UHGV virus genome: UHGV-0278008
From: a virus
DNA length: 19,628 nucleotides
Reading direction: 5' to 3' (one strand)
Below are positions 3,025-17,091 of this stretch, in pieces (position 1 is the first letter of the stretch; each line of letters begins with the position of its first letter). A program made the position numbers and the translations under genes. Below the pieces are notes generated by a model, which had not been told where the DNA came from, did no database searches, and worked only from the letters and a program-made list of their open reading frames with translations.

Positions 3025-3030
3025 GCCCAT

Positions 3031-3055
3031 AAAAAAAGCCCCTCCGGAGAGGGGC
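3031..3055 (-). terminator. Intrinsic terminator, minus strand (end of TerB-like transcription unit)
   Basis: gcccctc/gaggggc stem with 4-nt loop; A7 on plus strand = U-run on minus. Confidence 0.5.
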
Positions 3056-3305
3056 TGACGCTGCGTATCTGTATCATCATGCGCATGGTGCCGGGTGCCT
3101 CCCGGTGAGTTCAGTCCGGTGTCCCTGAACCCGCGTATCTCGATCCAGGTTGTCGTCAGAGATGACACCTTATACACCAGTCGCCCCTCCGCACAGGGGG
3201 ATTCACCATGCGAAATTTTTTTAACAAATGCTCAGTCTGACAGGCAACTGTCAACTGACTGAATTGTGAGACATTTAAAATTTTCGGGGCATGACTGATA
3301 CCCGG

Positions 3306-3898: not shown

Positions 3899-4030
3899 CG
3901 TGACGTTCCTTTGGGTGGGTGAGCCAACGCCCGGGAGCGATCTGCCCACAGAGAAAGTCACACTGACCACTCCGTAAGCTCACCCCCGAAAGGCTCTGTG
4001 GTTGATATGCGCCGGGCGTGGCGCGGATAC

Positions 4031-4054
4031 AAAAAAGGCCCGCAAAAGCGAGCC
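4031..4054 (-). terminator. Intrinsic terminator after tRNA cluster
   Basis: Minus-strand ggctcgc-tttt-gcgggcc hairpin followed by T6. Confidence 0.55.
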
Positions 4055-4068
4055 TGGTAAATAAATAT

Positions 4069-4145
4069 GGCGCGTTGTACTGGATTCGAACCAGTGACCG
4101 ATTGCTTAGAAGGCAATTGCTCTGTCCGGCTGAGCTAACAACGCA
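4069..4145 (-). tRNA. tRNA-Arg, anticodon UCU, CCA encoded
   Basis: Hand-folded cloverleaf: acceptor gcgttgt/acaacgc, D-arm gctc/gagc, anticodon loop cttCTaa, T-loop ttcgaat. Confidence 0.8.
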
Positions 4146-4158
4146 GTGTACCGATAAT

Positions 4159-4235
4159 GGACCGCCATCGAGGACTCGAACCCCGCGCAACCAGCTTCGA
4201 AGGCTGGCGCTCTGTCCCGATGAGCTAATGGCGGT
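4159..4235 (-). tRNA. tRNA-Arg, anticodon UCG, CCA encoded
   Basis: Acceptor ccgccat/atggcgg, anticodon loop ctTCGaa, T-arm cgggg-ttcgagt-cctcg. Confidence 0.75.
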
Positions 4236-4244
4236 ATGTGATAT

Positions 4245-4320
4245 GGTGGCCCTTGCTGGATTTGAACCAGCGACCTGGCGATTATGAGTCGCTCGCTCTC
4301 ACCACTGAGCTAAAGGGCCG
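4245..4320 (-). tRNA. tRNA with anticodon CAU (Ile2-type or Met), CCA encoded
   Basis: Acceptor ggccctt/aagggcc, D-arm gctc-agtggtga-gagc, anticodon loop ctCATaa, T-loop GGTTCAAATCC; same order as ileZ-argN-argO of Stx phages. Confidence 0.8.
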
Positions 4321-4359
4321 GGCGCAGGATAATAACGGTACGTAACTAATCCTGCAATA

Positions 4360-5418
4360 TCATCCGTTCTTACTGACTAAATCCTGAACTTCCCTGACCG
4401 TCTGCTCAAAACGTTCAGTCTCCAGCTCAACGCCAGTTGCACGACGTCCCAGCGCCATCGCTGCTTTGACTGTCGAACCCGACCCCATGAAAAAATCTGC
4501 AACCAGGTCACCCGGACGACTGCTCGCGCTGATTATCTGCTGCAGCATTTCTGCTGGTTTTTCGCACGGATGTTTCCCGGGATAGTACTGCACCGGTTTA
4601 TGCGTCCACACATCGGTGTACGGCACCTGCGCCGTCACGCCAAAATACCGCCGCAGATACTTATATTCACTCTGCAGTTCCGCATACTGCCGGTTCAGTT
4701 CACTGTATGTGCTGACCAGTTGGTGATGTGGCTTTTCCAGTTCTCCGCGCTGATGCTTCTCTTCTGCCACCCGGGCAAACAGCGCCTGTAATTTCAGATA
4801 ATCGCTTTCGTCCGGTAGCTGCCACTGGCTGGCACTGAACCAGTGCGACACCATGTTTTTCTTTCCTGTGGCATCAGCAATCTGTTTTGCCGTTATCCCC
4901 AGGGCAGCACGTGCATCACGAAAGTAAGAAATCAGCGGGGCCATCACATGCTGTTTCAGTGCCCTGCCCTTCGCCTCATACCCGGCATCTTTCGGGCGAT
5001 ACGGCCCCTGATAATGTTCCGCGAACAGAATGCGCTCTGTGGCGGGGAAATACGCCCGCAGGCTTTCCTTGTTGCACCCGTTCCAGCGTCCGGACGGCTT
5101 CGCCCAGATAATATGGTTCAGCACACTGAAGCGTTCACGCATCATGATTTCAATGTCAGACGCCAGGCGATGACCACAGAACAGGTAAAGACTTCCGGCA
5201 GGTTTCAGCACCCGCCAGAACTGCGCAAGACACTGGTCCAGCCATTTCAGGTAATCCTCATCCCCCGTCCACTGGTTATCCCAGCCCTCGGGCTTCACTT
5301 TAAAGTATGGCGGGTCTGTGACTATCAGATCGACAGAGTTTTCCGGTAAGGTCTGGATAAATTCCAGGCAATCAGCGTTGATTAGCTCACAACTGGATAT
5401 TTTTACAGTATTAGCCAT
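4360..5418 (-). CDS. DNA methyltransferase, beta-class (N6-adenine or N4-cytosine), orphan; 352 aa
   Basis: Motif IV DPPY near N-terminus (LIVTDPPYF) and motif I FxGxGST near C-terminus (DFFMGSGSTV); no adjacent restriction endonuclease. Confidence 0.85.
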   Translation of the reverse strand: MANTVKISSCELINADCLEFIQTLPENSVDLIVTDPPYFKVKPEGWDNQWTGDEDYLKWLDQCLAQFWRVLKPAGSLYLFCGHRLASDIEIMMRERFSVLNHIIWAKPSGRWNGCNKESLRAYFPATERILFAEHYQGPYRPKDAGYEAKGRALKQHVMAPLISYFRDARAALGITAKQIADATGKKNMVSHWFSASQWQLPDESDYLKLQALFARVAEEKHQRGELEKPHHQLVSTYSELNRQYAELQSEYKYLRRYFGVTAQVPYTDVWTHKPVQYYPGKHPCEKPAEMLQQIISASSRPGDLVADFFMGSGSTVKAAMALGRRATGVELETERFEQTVREVQDLVSKNG

Positions 5419-7974: not shown

Positions 7975-8247
7975 TTACCTCCAGATGCGCTGCTGGAATG
8001 TGCGGGACGGACGCGGTGGGCGTTCGGAATAAGGGAGCCTGGCGGAGATTATCCAGTGACGACGATCGAAGCTGAGGGCTTTCTCAAACTCATATCCGCG
8101 CCTGCGGTAACACTGGATCAGCCATTCGGCCTGTTCTTCAGTGCATAGGTCATGCTGGAACCAGTCGGTTTTAAATACGTGTGAACGCCGCCCCTGCTTA
8201 ATGGTCGGATCGACTTCAGAATTGTGGGATTTTATATGTTGCGCCAT
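7975..8247 (-). CDS. Hypothetical protein (Rem-like by position), 90 aa
   Basis: ATG with GGAGAA SD; located between DUF968 gene and hok, as rem is in Qin. Confidence 0.45.
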   Translation of the reverse strand: MAQHIKSHNSEVDPTIKQGRRSHVFKTDWFQHDLCTEEQAEWLIQCYRRRGYEFEKALSFDRRHWIISARLPYSERPPRPSRTFQQRIWR

Positions 8248-8415
8248 CGGGTTCTCCGGTGACGCAGCAGGTGCCAGTTGTTCAGGCTGACGCGCGAATT
8301 GTAAACCAGAATGCCAGGAAAAAACAAAGTCTGCCGAAACGGGGTAAGTGCGGGTGCGTTGAGGATGCCTGACACATCAGAGGTGGCGAGGGATTTCTCC
8401 CTCGCCTGGTCACTC

Positions 8416-8571
8416 TTACTTCTCAGATTCGTAGTCTACGAAGACAGCAACCTCCGTCTGGCCGGTTCGGATTCGTACCTCGCAGAGGTCTTTCCTCGTT
8501 ACCAGTGCCGTCACTATGACGGTTAAACAGATGACGATCAGGGCGATTAACATCGCCTTTTGCTGCTTCAT
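8416..8571 (-). CDS. hok: Hok/Gef-family type I toxin (51 aa)
   Basis: MKQQKAMLIALIVICLTVIVTALVTRKDLCEVRIRTGQTEVAVF... is near-identical in pattern to HokD/HokC. Confidence 0.85.
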   Translation of the reverse strand: MKQQKAMLIALIVICLTVIVTALVTRKDLCEVRIRTGQTEVAVFVDYESEK

Positions 8572-8628
8572 AGTCTGCTTCTCCTTGACCTTTCGGTCCG
8601 TAAGAGGCAATCTATATGTGACGAGCAT
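8416..8628 (-). CDS. Mok-like in-frame N-terminally extended reading frame over hok (70 aa)
   Basis: ATG at 8628..8626 with GTGAGG SD; MLVTYRLPLTDRKVKEKQTM- extension resembles recalled MokC N-terminus. Confidence 0.45.
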   Translation of the reverse strand: MLVTYRLPLTDRKVKEKQTMKQQKAMLIALIVICLTVIVTALVTRKDLCEVRIRTGQTEVAVFVDYESEK

Positions 8629-8671
8629 ATAGGGGCCTCACTTCGATTTATAGTCGGGTGGGGCTTTTATC
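8600..8671 (+). ncRNA. Candidate Sok-like antisense RNA; 5' end not determined
   Basis: Plus-strand hairpin gcctcac (8634-8640) / gtggggc (8660-8666) plus U-run 8667-8670, antisense to the mok SD/start; TTGACC at 8585-8590 is a possible -35. Confidence 0.35.
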
Positions 8672-8816
8672 TATCTGCCGTTGGTGTTCATGCCCGAGGC
8701 AGATAGCCTCAAGCACCCGCAGCAATTTTACAAAAACAAACTATTATTTTCTATGTCCTTTCACTTGTCTCATTTCTGACTATACTGATCGCTCACACAA
8801 CACAAAAGGTATAAAA

Positions 8817-8990
8817 ATGACCGTTCATGGTATATCGGAAAACAGTACTGTTCACTTACGTGAAAAAAATGGAGAATGGCTTGTAATGCAAATTATTAGA
8901 AACGAAGATATTACATATCAACTCCGAAATACAGATACAGACGAAGAAGTAATCGCCACGCTTCAGGACATTATCTCCCCAAATAAATAA
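8817..8990 (+). CDS. Hypothetical small protein (57 aa), AT-rich, opposite strand to neighbours
   Basis: ATG at 8817 with AAAGG SD and TATACT -10-like hexamer upstream; MTVHGISENSTVHLREKNGEWLVMQIIRNEDITYQLRNTDTDEEVIATLQDIISPNK. Confidence 0.5.
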   Translation: MTVHGISENSTVHLREKNGEWLVMQIIRNEDITYQLRNTDTDEEVIATLQDIISPNK

Positions 8991-9112
8991 TCAAATCAGC
9001 GGGGCGCACAATACCCCGCACTATTCCACTTATCATCCCCAGCGGCAAATCGAATACACCACCAGCGCCACCGCCATTGCAATTCCTACCGTTATGAACG
9101 CTTCAGGCCAGG

Positions 9113-15608: not shown

Positions 15609-15666
15609 CCATGTGTAGTCTTTGGTGGCATCAGTTCTACTCCGTGACTGCTCTGCCACCCTTTTT
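15609..15666 (+). ncRNA. dicF: DicF-like sRNA (3' two-thirds conserved, including terminator)
   Basis: GGTGGCATCAGTTCTACTCCGTGACTGCTCTGCCACCC+TTTTT closely matches recalled DicF 3' region GGCGGUAUCAGUUUUACUCCGUGACUGCUCUGCCGCCCUUUUU; 5' boundary uncertain. Confidence 0.6.
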
Positions 15667-16149
15667 AAAGTGAATTTTGTGATGCGGTGAATGCGGCTAA
15701 GCGCACGCGGAACAGTTAAAACAAGCGGTCTTTTACTGGCGTAACAGACATCAACTAACAATCCGGCGTTAATTGTTAACTGGTTAACGTCACCTGGAGG
15801 CACCAGGCACTGCATCAACAAAGTTCACTTCGGTGATGAAGGGTAAGAGAAAATGTTGAATGTAGCTATTGAAAACCAGAATGGGTGGAATTATAGTGCA
15901 CCTGCACCTCATAAAGCGGGTGCCGGGCGTGGAAACCCGATGATGACTACTGCGCATAACCGCGCTCAGGCGGTTTTTTTATGCGTAATGCACAGCCACA
16001 TTCAGATTATGGTGGGGCGTGCAGGGCAGCCGAAAGGCTGGCCGGTTTCGGTAGTCACCGGTATTTCCACCCCTGTACGTCTCACCACCCTTATGGTCGT
16101 GGAAAGCCTTGGTGGTGAGTTATTTAAACTGACTATCGAGGCTGCCATC

Positions 16150-16906: not shown

Positions 16907-17091
16907 CTTCAGCATTTGCACTGGTGATGACGGTTTTTCTTATAACGGGTGAATCACAGAATGTGATTACCGGAATTTATGCCAGTAAAGAATCCTGCCT
17001 CCAGGCAAGAGACGAGCAAAAAATTTCTGGTGAATGCCTCCCGTTAAAAAAAGTATCGCTGTACCTGAATAACGAAACACCGGCTGGATAA
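16903..17091 (+). CDS. YdfD-like small protein with N-terminal hydrophobic segment (62 aa)
   Basis: ATGA overlap with dicB-like stop; MTSAFALVMTVFLITGE...; position as ydfD in Qin. Confidence 0.55.
   Translation: MTSAFALVMTVFLITGESQNVITGIYASKESCLQARDEQKISGECLPLKKVSLYLNNETPAG

What the first reader, a model, noticed from the sequence alone, without database searches (positions are those of the whole stretch)
8416..8671. Apparently intact hok/mok locus with candidate Sok antisense terminator
Unlike K-12 hokD, which is the third gene of relBEF, this Hok has an in-frame Mok-like extension with SD, and a plus-strand hairpin plus U-run directly antisense to that SD, which is the expected geometry of a Sok RNA. 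A functional type I toxin-antitoxin inside a prophage could stabilise the prophage or contribute to abortive infection.
Basis: partly seen in the sequence, partly recalled or inferred. Interest (0 to 1): 0.45.

Follow-up and report, generated by a model that had tools for sequence, protein, structure and literature searches.

The report
Prophage hok/mok/sok toxin-antitoxin locus

Summary
On the minus strand lies a 51-aa Hok (8416-8571) that is 100% identical to HokW of phage 933W. An in-frame 19-codon Mok extension starts at 8628 behind a GAGG ribosome-binding site (SD) at 8636-8639. On the plus strand, 8620-8669 folds into a 10-nt tail, a long hairpin and a U-run, exactly like the annotated SokC (K-12) and SokW (933W). 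Its stem lies antisense to the mok SD.

The locus is larger than the finding. It runs from the hok promoter (8753-8725) and 5' tac element (8718-8707) to the fbi element (8364-8352) in the 3' UTR. Rfam RF01794 scores 104.6 bits and Pfam HOK_GEF gives 1e-22. The predicted tac-fbi closure and the refolding after 3' trimming follow the plasmid R1 model, and 21 homologs support the fold through compensatory changes.

Two blemishes:
- The intrinsic terminator after fbi has decayed, in a rare allele.
- The Sok -10 hexamer is weak (CAATCT).

The functional hokW also lacks a terminator, and SokC has an equally weak -10. K-12 hokD is the same gene with its leader replaced by relBE.

Verdict: a known system and an ordinary member, so low interest. 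Activity is inferred, not shown.

The parts
8725..8753 (-). hok promoter: -35 TAGAAA (8753-8748), 17-nt spacer, -10 TAAAAT (8730-8725)
   Evidence: Consensus scan. The -10 ends 7 nt before the predicted 5' end at 8718. The -10 sits at the same position in 933W (TAGAAT), hokC (TATAAT) and the R1-type copy (TATGAT). Function is inferred.
8318..8718 (-). predicted full-length hok mRNA (about 400 nt). The 5' end is inferred from the start of the Rfam model and from homology. The 3' end is uncertain because the terminator is degenerate.
   Evidence: Rfam RF01794 model position 1 aligns to 8718. MFE folds. The structure is kept in 21 homologs, with 84.8% of cells paired against 39-46% in slid controls.
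8707..8718 (-). tac element (GGGUGCUUGAGG), the 5' end of the hok mRNA
   Evidence: Pairs with fbi in the MFE of the full-length RNA and with nt 53-59 after 3' truncation. The tac-fbi helix is 90.6% paired with 4 covarying pairs, for example U-A in 13 and C-G in 8 sequences. It also forms a local 5' hairpin of -19 kcal/mol.
8660..8666 (-). upstream partner of tac in the truncated (active) fold (AAGCCCC; likely the 'ucb' of the R1 nomenclature)
   Evidence: MFE of the mRNA truncated at nt 330-351. The helix is 98.5% paired but invariant in 21 homologs.
8620..8669 (+). Sok antisense RNA candidate (about 49-50 nt): 10-nt 5' tail, terminator hairpin 8630-8664, U-run 8665-8668
   Evidence: Positional homolog of annotated sokC (K-12 b4413) and sokW (933W). 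Both start 9 nt inside mok. Fold of -20.1 kcal/mol, z = -4.25. The hairpin is 95.1% paired with 4 of 9 pairs covarying in 21 homologs. No expression data.
8585..8613 (+). Sok promoter: -35 TTGACC (8585-8590), 17-nt spacer, -10 CAATCT (8608-8613)
   Evidence: Aligns with sokW TTGCCT/TAACCT and sokC TTGACC/CACTCT. The sokW -10 at this position was the target of the promoter-less mutant in PMC8621323 (primers YO-421/422). TTG of the -35, and the -11A and -7T of the -10, are invariant in 21 loci. It falls below the threshold of the consensus scan.
8636..8639 (-). mok Shine-Dalgarno (GAGG)
   Evidence: Read from the sequence. Invariant in 21 homologs. Covered by Sok.
8416..8628 (-). mok reading frame (70 codons), in frame with and fully overlapping hok
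   Evidence: ORF list and translation. Same 57-nt offset as mokC, mokW and the R1-type copy.
8604..8640 (-). Sok target hairpin of the processed mRNA: stem GAGGC/GCCUC plus CUAUAUG/CAUAUAG, with 7-nt loop CUCGUCA (8625-8619) complementary to the Sok 5' tail
   Evidence: Local fold of -12.7 kcal/mol, z = -3.33. It appears in the MFE only after fbi is removed. The outer stem is invariant and the inner stem shows 4 pairs with double-sided changes. The loop is hypervariable among loci.
8581..8585 (-). hok Shine-Dalgarno (AGGAG). Paired to CCUCU (8606-8602) in the full-length fold and free in the truncated fold.
   Evidence: helix 8, 99% paired.
8416..8571 (-). hok toxin gene, 51 aa, identical to HokW of phage 933W
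   Evidence: PGAP calls the identical CDS 'Hok/Gef family protein' WP_000813258.1.
8428..8434 (-). 7-nt loop CUACGAA holding Tyr47 codon UAC (8433-8431), a mimic of the tRNA-Arg(ACG) anticodon loop. Probable TadA A-to-I (Tyr to Cys) editing site.
   Evidence: Fold. UACGAA is invariant and the flanking stem covaries in 21 homologs (helix 18). Editing of hokC, hokD and hokE at this position is reported in PMC12214031. Not tested for this locus.
8385..8406 (-). stable hairpin just after the hok stop codon (GGCGAGGGA-GAAA-UCCCUCGCC)
   Evidence: 85% paired in homologs (helix 19).
8352..8364 (-). fbi element (CCUCAACGCACCC), complementary to tac
   Evidence: MFE pairing with nt 1-12. Covariation with tac. 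Retained as an orphan in K-12 hokD.
8319..8342 (-). degenerate intrinsic terminator: the U-tract is kept but the stem is destroyed by about 5 substitutions
   Evidence: -5.3 kcal/mol, z = +1.06 here, against a clean CCCGC-UUCG-GCGGG stem (-14.8 kcal/mol) in the relative L003. No terminator found by the scan. Only 22 records reach >=99% identity in their best match to the 3' UTR query that contains this stem.

Best explanation
The region 8318-8753 is a complete hok/mok/sok type I toxin-antitoxin cassette of the hokW/hokD lineage. It sits in the nin region of an E. coli lambdoid (Qin-like) prophage.

Inferred mechanism, following the plasmid R1 model:
1. A promoter at 8753-8725 makes a stable mRNA of about 400 nt. 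Its 5' tac (8718-8707) pairs with the 3' fbi (8364-8352).
2. In this closed form the hok SD is paired, the mok start is buried, and neither ribosomes nor Sok can act.
3. Slow 3' trimming removes fbi. tac then re-pairs with 8666-8660.
4. A hairpin (8640-8604) forms and presents the mok start region in a 7-nt loop. The hok SD is released.
5. While the prophage is transcribed normally, the short-lived Sok RNA (8620-8669, plus strand) binds that loop through its 5' tail. The duplex covers the mok SD and AUG, blocks the mok translation on which hok translation depends, and is cleaved by RNase III.
6. If Sok synthesis stops, processed mRNA is translated. This could follow prophage induction, loss of the element, or a transcription shut-off. 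The membrane toxin Hok, possibly after TadA editing of Tyr47 to Cys, then depolarises and lyses the cell.

Shown here: sequence, homology, all motifs, predicted folds and covariation.
Inferred: transcripts, processing, toxicity of this copy and its biological role. By analogy with hokW-sokW, the most likely role is helping lysis and phage release on induction.
For: - Family hits: Rfam RF01794 104.6 bits, Pfam HOK_GEF 1e-22, PHROG 251 9.8e-33.
- Hok is 100% identical to HokW, and Mok is in frame as in mokW, mokC and the R1-type copy.
- The Sok candidate matches annotated sokC and sokW in position, start (9 nt inside mok) and fold.
- tac-fbi pairing is predicted in the window, 933W and the R1-type copy.
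- Truncation-dependent refolding frees the hok SD and forms the target hairpin.
- 21 homologs from Escherichia, Kluyvera, Citrobacter, Pantoea and Photorhabdus keep the fold. 84.8% of cells are paired against 39-46% in slid controls, 36 pairs have double-sided changes, and 0 of 500 shuffles reach the observed value.
- hokW-sokW has been shown experimentally to be a type I TA (PMC8621323).
- The mechanism is reviewed in PMC4147584.
- The leader allele is present in 608 of 5426 complete E. coli genomes (>=80% of the query), so it is maintained.
Against: - There are no expression or toxicity data for this copy.
- The Sok -10 (CAATCT) matches only 2 of 6 consensus positions, and the consensus scan does not call it.
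- The intrinsic terminator after fbi has decayed in this allele. Only 22 records reach >=99% identity to the 3' UTR query that contains it. The 3' end, and therefore the timing of processing, is uncertain.
- The structure tested for covariation was derived from the window's own MFE.
Confidence: 0.85

Rival explanations
1. The cassette is a silent or decaying relic. The sequence looks complete, but the weak Sok promoter, the lost terminator and the chromosomal context mean it no longer works as a toxin-antitoxin. It would be either never translated or harmlessly repressed.
For: The terminator stem is destroyed. The 3' UTR variant that contains it is rare, with 22 records at >=99% identity. The Sok -10 is weak. 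Chromosomal hokA, hokB and hokC loci were reported inactive for killing. K-12 hokD shows that this very locus can lose its leader and persist.
Against: The hok and mok ORFs are intact. tac, fbi, both SDs, the target hairpin and the Sok hairpin are all intact. The functional hokW also has no intrinsic terminator after fbi. K-12 sokC has an equally weak -10 (CACTCT). The leader allele is >=99% conserved in hundreds of genomes.
Confidence: 0.25
2. The module mainly acts as a defence or addiction device. It would kill cells that lose the prophage, or abort infection by other phages when host transcription is shut off.
For: R1 hok/sok mediates post-segregational killing and reduced T4 plating when on a high-copy plasmid (cited in PMC8621323). 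hok genes are about 4-fold enriched in prophages.
Against: The only near-identical system tested, hokW-sokW, promoted lysis and doubled phage release on induction. hok is not enriched near defence systems, according to a section title of the preprint. Nothing in the sequence separates these roles.
Confidence: 0.3
3. The plus-strand hairpin with its U-run is only the mirror image of a structured hok leader and is not transcribed as a separate RNA.
For: Any stable hairpin in the leader also folds on the opposite strand. The Rfam 'sok' model matches the hok-sense strand, since its last three positions are the hok AUG. It therefore does not prove an antisense RNA by itself.
Against: The U-run follows the hairpin on the plus strand only. 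On the mRNA strand it reads AAAAG. A -35/-10 pair with invariant key bases lies at the right distance upstream. Homologous SokC and SokW are annotated RNAs, and SokW was detected by Northern blot.
Confidence: 0.07

Closest known systems
hokW-mokW-sokW of Stx2 phages 933W / Sakai prophage 5 (Plunkett et al. 1999 annotation AF125520; Takada et al. 2021, PMC8621323)
   Same: The Hok toxin is identical over all 51 aa. mok is in frame with a 19-codon extension. tac, fbi, the hok SD region and the 3' UTR hairpin are the same. Sok starts 9 nt inside mok. Both sit in lambdoid prophages. DNA identity is about 86% over 8346-8731.
   Different: The Sok/target module is a different allele. The hairpin is 19 nt shorter, the 5' tail is GACGAGC rather than GUUCAGC, and the target loop is CUCGUCA rather than CUGAACA. 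The Mok N-terminus differs (LPLTDRKVKEKQT against LASYVPKGKEKQA). The position in the phage genome also differs: the nin region co-oriented with early genes here, and the right end beyond the tail genes in 933W.
hokD (relF) of the E. coli K-12 Qin prophage
   Same: Same prophage neighbourhood, upstream of rem/DUF968 ydfU, Rus and Q. Hok is 46 of 51 aa identical, differing only in the last seven residues. fbi, the 3' hairpin and the terminator region are homologous.
   Different: In K-12, everything upstream of the hok SD (promoter, tac, mok start, Sok gene) is replaced by relB-relE. K-12 hokD is therefore a leaderless third gene with an orphan fbi, whereas the window has the full leader.
hokC (gef)-mokC-sokC of the E. 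coli chromosome
   Same: Same architecture, with annotated in-frame mokC and a sokC RNA overlapping mokC by 9 nt. The Mok extension is nearly the same (MLNTCRVPLTDRKVKEKRA). The -35 is the same (TTGACC) and the -10 is similarly weak.
   Different: Hok is about 80% identical. The Sok hairpin and tail differ. In K-12 the 3' UTR is cut by IS186, so fbi is missing.
hok/sok (parB) of plasmid R1, the reference system
   Same: All elements are aligned and predicted to pair in the same way: tac-fbi, the Sok promoter inside mok, in-frame mok, and a terminal hairpin.
   Different: Hok similarity is low. PMC8621323 reports 44% identity between HokW and R1 Hok. The leader is longer and a strong intrinsic terminator is present. 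R1 hok/sok is plasmid-borne with a demonstrated post-segregational killing role.

Membership tests
[quoted passage not shown] | Small hydrophobic Hok/Gef toxin (about 50 aa) with a conserved TRKxLCE motif | tested here: met
   Pfam PF01848 at 79.8 bits against a cutoff of 22. PHROG 251. 100% identical to HokW.
[quoted passage not shown] | mok reading frame that starts upstream, overlaps hok and has its own SD | tested here: met
   ATG at 8628 and GAGG at 8639-8636, 57 nt upstream of the hok ATG and in frame. The offset is the same in 15 of 21 homologs.
[quoted passage not shown] | cis-encoded antisense Sok RNA covering the mok SD and start, with its own promoter, a single-stranded 5' tail and a terminator hairpin | tested here: inconclusive
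   The sequence features and the homology to annotated sokC and sokW are met. Transcription cannot be tested with these tools, and the -10 is weak.
[quoted passage not shown] | Long-range 5' tac to 3' fbi pairing that closes the full-length mRNA | tested here: met
   Present in the MFE. 90.6% paired with 4 covarying pairs in 21 homologs.
[quoted passage not shown] | Alternative fold after 3' processing that exposes the Sok target and the translation signals | tested here: met
   Prediction only. Truncation to nt 330-351 switches tac to nt 53-59, forms hairpin 80-115 and frees the hok SD.
[quoted passage not shown] | Structured leader matching the Rfam RF01794 covariance model | tested here: met
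   104.6 bits against a gathering score of 59, with full-length match 1-157.
[quoted passage not shown] | Defined 3' end (intrinsic terminator) after fbi | tested here: not met
   No stable stem (-5.3 kcal/mol, z = +1.06). The functional hokW lacks one as well, so this is not a strict family requirement.
[quoted passage not shown] | Toxicity of Hok and its neutralisation by Sok | not testable with these tools
   Shown for the identical HokW protein with its own SokW (PMC8621323), but not for this Sok allele.
NCBIfam Hok subfamily / HokA equivalog | Score above the curated cutoff | tested here: not met
   NF007279 scores 53.6 against a cutoff of 73. NF007290 scores 38.8 against 89. This fits PGAP's generic name 'Hok/Gef family protein'.

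The most novel reading that the evidence does not exclude
The Sok/target module may be a separately exchangeable specificity cassette. The same HokW toxin is controlled here by a Sok whose tail, target loop and hairpin differ from SokW and SokC. The same short hairpin allele turns up next to hok genes only 66-70% identical in Photorhabdus and Citrobacter. Recombination may therefore shuffle antitoxin specificity, so that several hok prophages in one cell are not cross-protected. In addition, loss of the terminator in this rare allele could tie hok mRNA 3' processing to read-through into the downstream nin genes.
Probability: 0.3. Interest if true: 0.3.

Novelty: already known. Interest (0 to 1): 0.12.

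Why it matters
It matters little beyond annotation. RefSeq annotates only the Hok CDS in the identical record. The report therefore adds the mok frame, the Sok RNA, the promoters, tac, fbi and the probable TadA editing loop for this allele. It also shows that K-12 hokD is a leader-deleted derivative of this prophage cassette. If the copy is active, it could affect lysis timing or phage yield after induction, as hokW-sokW does. The diversity of Sok alleles on an identical toxin is a modest lead on antitoxin orthogonality among co-resident prophages.

Tried and rejected
1. The consensus promoter and terminator scan did not call the Sok promoter or any terminator.
2. A search for a LexA-type box (CTG-N10-CAG) across 8201-8900, covering the locus and its flanks, to explain RecA-dependent induction found nothing.
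3. I first took the missing hok terminator as a sign of decay. I dropped that as decisive because the functional hokW also lacks one.
4. NCBIfam equivalogs did not reach their cutoffs.
5. The neighbouring ORFs (90 aa, 57 aa, 114 aa, 171 aa) gave no functional family.
6. From memory I expected R1 mok to be out of frame with hok. Translation of an R1-type plasmid copy shows it is in frame.
7. The second hok-like place in the same host genome was not located, so cross-talk within that genome was not assessed.

Full report
**Context**

The window is part of an E. coli lambdoid prophage. Bases 8250-8800 are 100% identical to E. coli CP55_Sichuan (NZ_CP053731.1). In that record the region lies between replication/nin genes and a DUF968-RusA-DUF1133 block, a DNA methyltransferase, three tRNAs and lysis genes. 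This is the position occupied by relB-relE-hokD in the Qin prophage of K-12.

**Checking the observation**

- The minus strand carries a 51-codon hok ORF (8571-8416).
- An in-frame ATG lies 57 nt upstream at 8628 and gives a 70-codon mok. It is preceded by GAGG at 8639-8636.
- The Hok/Gef Pfam domain is hit at E = 1e-22, and PHROG 251 'MokW-like host killing' at 9.8e-33.
- Rfam RF01794 ('sok') matches 8718-8569 on the minus strand over its full length, at 104.6 bits and E = 3.4e-23.
- That Rfam model is written in the sense of the hok leader. Its first bases are the mRNA 5' end and its last three are the hok AUG. It therefore confirms the leader rather than the antisense strand as such.
- The plus-strand stretch 8620-8669 folds into a free 10-nt tail and a long hairpin followed by UUUU. 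Energy is -20.1 kcal/mol, z = -4.25, and no shuffle of 200 does as well.

The unit is longer than the finding on both sides.

**Anatomy**

The hok side:
- A promoter-like site, TAGAAA-17-TAAAAT (8753-8725, minus strand), ends 7 nt before 8718. 933W, hokC and an R1-type plasmid copy have -10 boxes at the same place.
- The predicted mRNA begins GGGUGCUUGAGG (tac, 8718-8707).
- In the minimum-energy fold of the full-length RNA, these 12 nt pair with CCUCAACGCACCC (fbi, 8364-8352) in the 3' UTR. The hok SD AGGAG (8585-8581) is paired to CCUCU, and the mok AUG is paired to the 3' UTR.
- When the 3' end is shortened so that fbi is lost, the predicted fold switches. tac pairs with AAGCCCC (8666-8660), a hairpin forms at 8640-8604 with the 7-nt loop CUCGUCA, and the hok SD becomes free. 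That hairpin alone has -12.7 kcal/mol and z = -3.33.
- The loop is complementary to the 5' tail of the Sok candidate. By my reading it holds a YUNR (CUCG) motif of the type described for the R1 target loop. That comparison rests on my own knowledge of Franch et al. 1999.

The Sok side:
- K-12 annotates sokC at 16952-17010, and 933W annotates sokW at 58664-58734. Both start 9 nt inside their mok.
- The homologous start here is G8620.
- Upstream lie TTGACC (8585-8590), 17 nt of spacer, and CAATCT (8608-8613). These align with TTGCCT/TAACCT of sokW and TTGACC/CACTCT of sokC.
- The sokW hexamer at that position is the one changed in the 'promoter-less' construct of Takada et al., judging from primers YO-421/422.
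- In 21 aligned loci, the TTG of the -35 and the -11A and -7T of the -10 never vary. These bases also lie under other constraints.

**Comparative support**

I collected 47 loci from other genomes. I aligned 21 leader-bearing ones from Escherichia, Kluyvera, Citrobacter, Pantoea and Photorhabdus, plus 933W and an R1-type plasmid.

| Measure | Observed | Control |
|---|---|---|
| Cells forming standard pairs, window's full-length fold | 84.8% | 39-46% (partners slid 1-3 columns) |
| Pairs with changes on both sides | 36 | 0 of 500 shuffles reach this |
| tac-fbi helix paired | 90.6% | n/a |
| Sok-terminator hairpin paired | 95.1% | n/a |

- In the tac-fbi helix, one pair is U-A in 13 sequences and C-G in 8.
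- In the Sok-terminator hairpin, 4 of 9 pairs covary.
- The helices specific to the truncated form are kept but mostly invariant, so they neither add nor subtract evidence.
- The structure was derived from the window itself. That favours only 1 row of 21.

**mok register**

- mok is in frame, with a 57-nt offset, in the window, mokW, mokC, the R1-type copy and 15 of 21 loci overall.
- Four loci have a 58-nt offset with a long +1 ORF.
- Two loci have a 19-codon mok that ends near the hok start.
- Two 1-nt indels compensate each other in the in-frame loci.

The recollection stands. The variation fits the accepted view that it is translation of mok, not its product, that matters (PMC4147584).

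**Relation to known systems**

- Hok is identical to HokW of 933W/Sp5. hokW-sokW has been shown to be a type I TA. It is partly dependent on RNase III and Hfq, SokW disappears after mitomycin C in a RecA-dependent way, and the system gives a two-fold gain in phage release (PMC8621323).
- The regulatory module differs from hokW. The Sok hairpin is 19 nt shorter, the tail is GACGAGC against GUUCAGC, and the loop is CUCGUCA against CUGAACA. The Mok extension resembles MokC rather than MokW.
- K-12 hokD aligns from the hok SD through fbi and the terminator. Upstream of the SD it is relE sequence, so K-12 hokD is a leader-deleted form of this cassette and keeps an orphan fbi.
- Such loci are common. 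4739 of 5426 complete E. coli genomes match the 551-nt query. 1257 cover at least 80% of it, with up to 11 places per genome.
- This leader allele is present in 608 genomes at 80% coverage or more.
- 108 phage records match, several of them annotated mokW/hokW/sokW.
- A 2026 preprint catalogues 44,248 Hok homologs and reports enrichment in prophages.

**Blemishes**

1. The intrinsic terminator after fbi is a clean CCCGC-UUCG-GCGGG stem plus U-tract in most relatives. Here about 5 substitutions disrupt it: -5.3 kcal/mol, z = +1.06, against -14.8 kcal/mol in L003.
   - Only 22 records reach 99% or more in their best match to the 3' UTR query that includes this stem.
   - hokW has no terminator after fbi either and is followed directly by another gene. 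I therefore do not count this as loss of function. It does leave the 3' end undefined.
2. The Sok -10 is weak. It is shared by hundreds of genomes and is as weak as that of sokC.

Neither transcripts nor toxicity can be tested here. Earlier work found chromosomal hokA, hokB and hokC loci inactive for post-segregational killing. Activity therefore remains an inference.

**Side observations within the locus**

- Tyr47 (UAC, 8433-8431) sits in a 7-nt loop, CUACGAA. By my recollection this is the sequence of the tRNA-Arg(ACG) anticodon loop, the natural TadA substrate.
- UACGAA is invariant, and the closing stem covaries in the 21 loci (helix 18). The local fold alone is not exceptional (z = -0.59).
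- TadA-dependent Tyr-to-Cys editing at this position is reported for hokC, hokD and hokE at 6-40% (PMC12214031).
- A good intrinsic terminator on the minus strand (9019-8999) lies just upstream of the hok promoter. It should insulate hok from early-operon transcription unless that transcription is antiterminated.

**Verdict**

The object is a textbook hok/mok/sok cassette in a prophage and is already known as a kind. Its toxin is identical to a characterised one.

The only mildly new points are the distinct Sok allele on an identical toxin, the decayed terminator, and the clear derivation of K-12 hokD. Interest is low.

Noticed in passing
window 8428-8434 (-), codon 8433-8431: hok Tyr47 codon UAC lies in a 7-nt loop CUACGAA that mimics the tRNA-Arg(ACG) anticodon loop. 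UACGAA is invariant and the closing stem covaries across 21 homologs. It is probably the TadA A-to-I (Tyr to Cys) editing site reported for hokC, hokD and hokE.
   Followed up: partly
window 8319-8342 (-): The intrinsic terminator downstream of fbi is disrupted by about 5 substitutions relative to most relatives. Only 22 E. coli records reach >=99% identity to the 120-nt 3' UTR query that contains it.
   Followed up: partly
window 8999-9019 (-): A strong intrinsic terminator (GCGGGG-7 nt-CCCCGC plus a U-rich tail) lies just upstream of the hok promoter. It would insulate hok from upstream early-operon transcription.
   Followed up: no
window 8817-8990 (+): A 57-aa ORF is divergent from hok and annotated as a hypothetical protein in the identical RefSeq record. 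It has no Pfam or PHROG family. A leaky Sok terminator would read towards it.
   Followed up: no
L037 (Photorhabdus kayaii) and L048 (Citrobacter youngae), leader region about 60-90 nt upstream of the mok ATG: These loci carry the same short Sok-hairpin allele as the window (CCCCAYYCGACT.TAAATCGAA.TGAGG, with compensatory changes), although their hok CDS is only 66-70% identical. Sister Photorhabdus loci carry a different hairpin. This suggests modular exchange of the Sok hairpin.
   Followed up: partly
L002 (K-12) 3950-4400 against window 8250-8760: K-12 hokD keeps fbi and the terminator but has relE sequence immediately upstream of the hok SD. It is an orphan fbi with no tac partner.
   Followed up: yes
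window 3025-3240 (-): Full-length match to the sRNA STnc100 (RF02076, 161.5 bits) in the late region of the prophage.
   Followed up: no
window 4068-4319 (-): Three prophage tRNA genes: Arg(tct), Arg(tcg) and a cat-anticodon tRNA. ARAGORN calls the last one Met, and PGAP calls it Ile in the identical record.
   Followed up: no
window 15610-16092 (+): A cluster of three known regulatory RNAs in the immunity and early-left region: DicF (15610-15661), isrK (15904-15980) and a C4-type antisense RNA (16005-16092).
   Followed up: no
L017, L018, L029, L030 (58-nt offset); L021, L025 (19-codon mok): In 6 of 21 homologs mok is not in frame with hok. The mok register is therefore not strictly conserved in the family.
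   Followed up: yes
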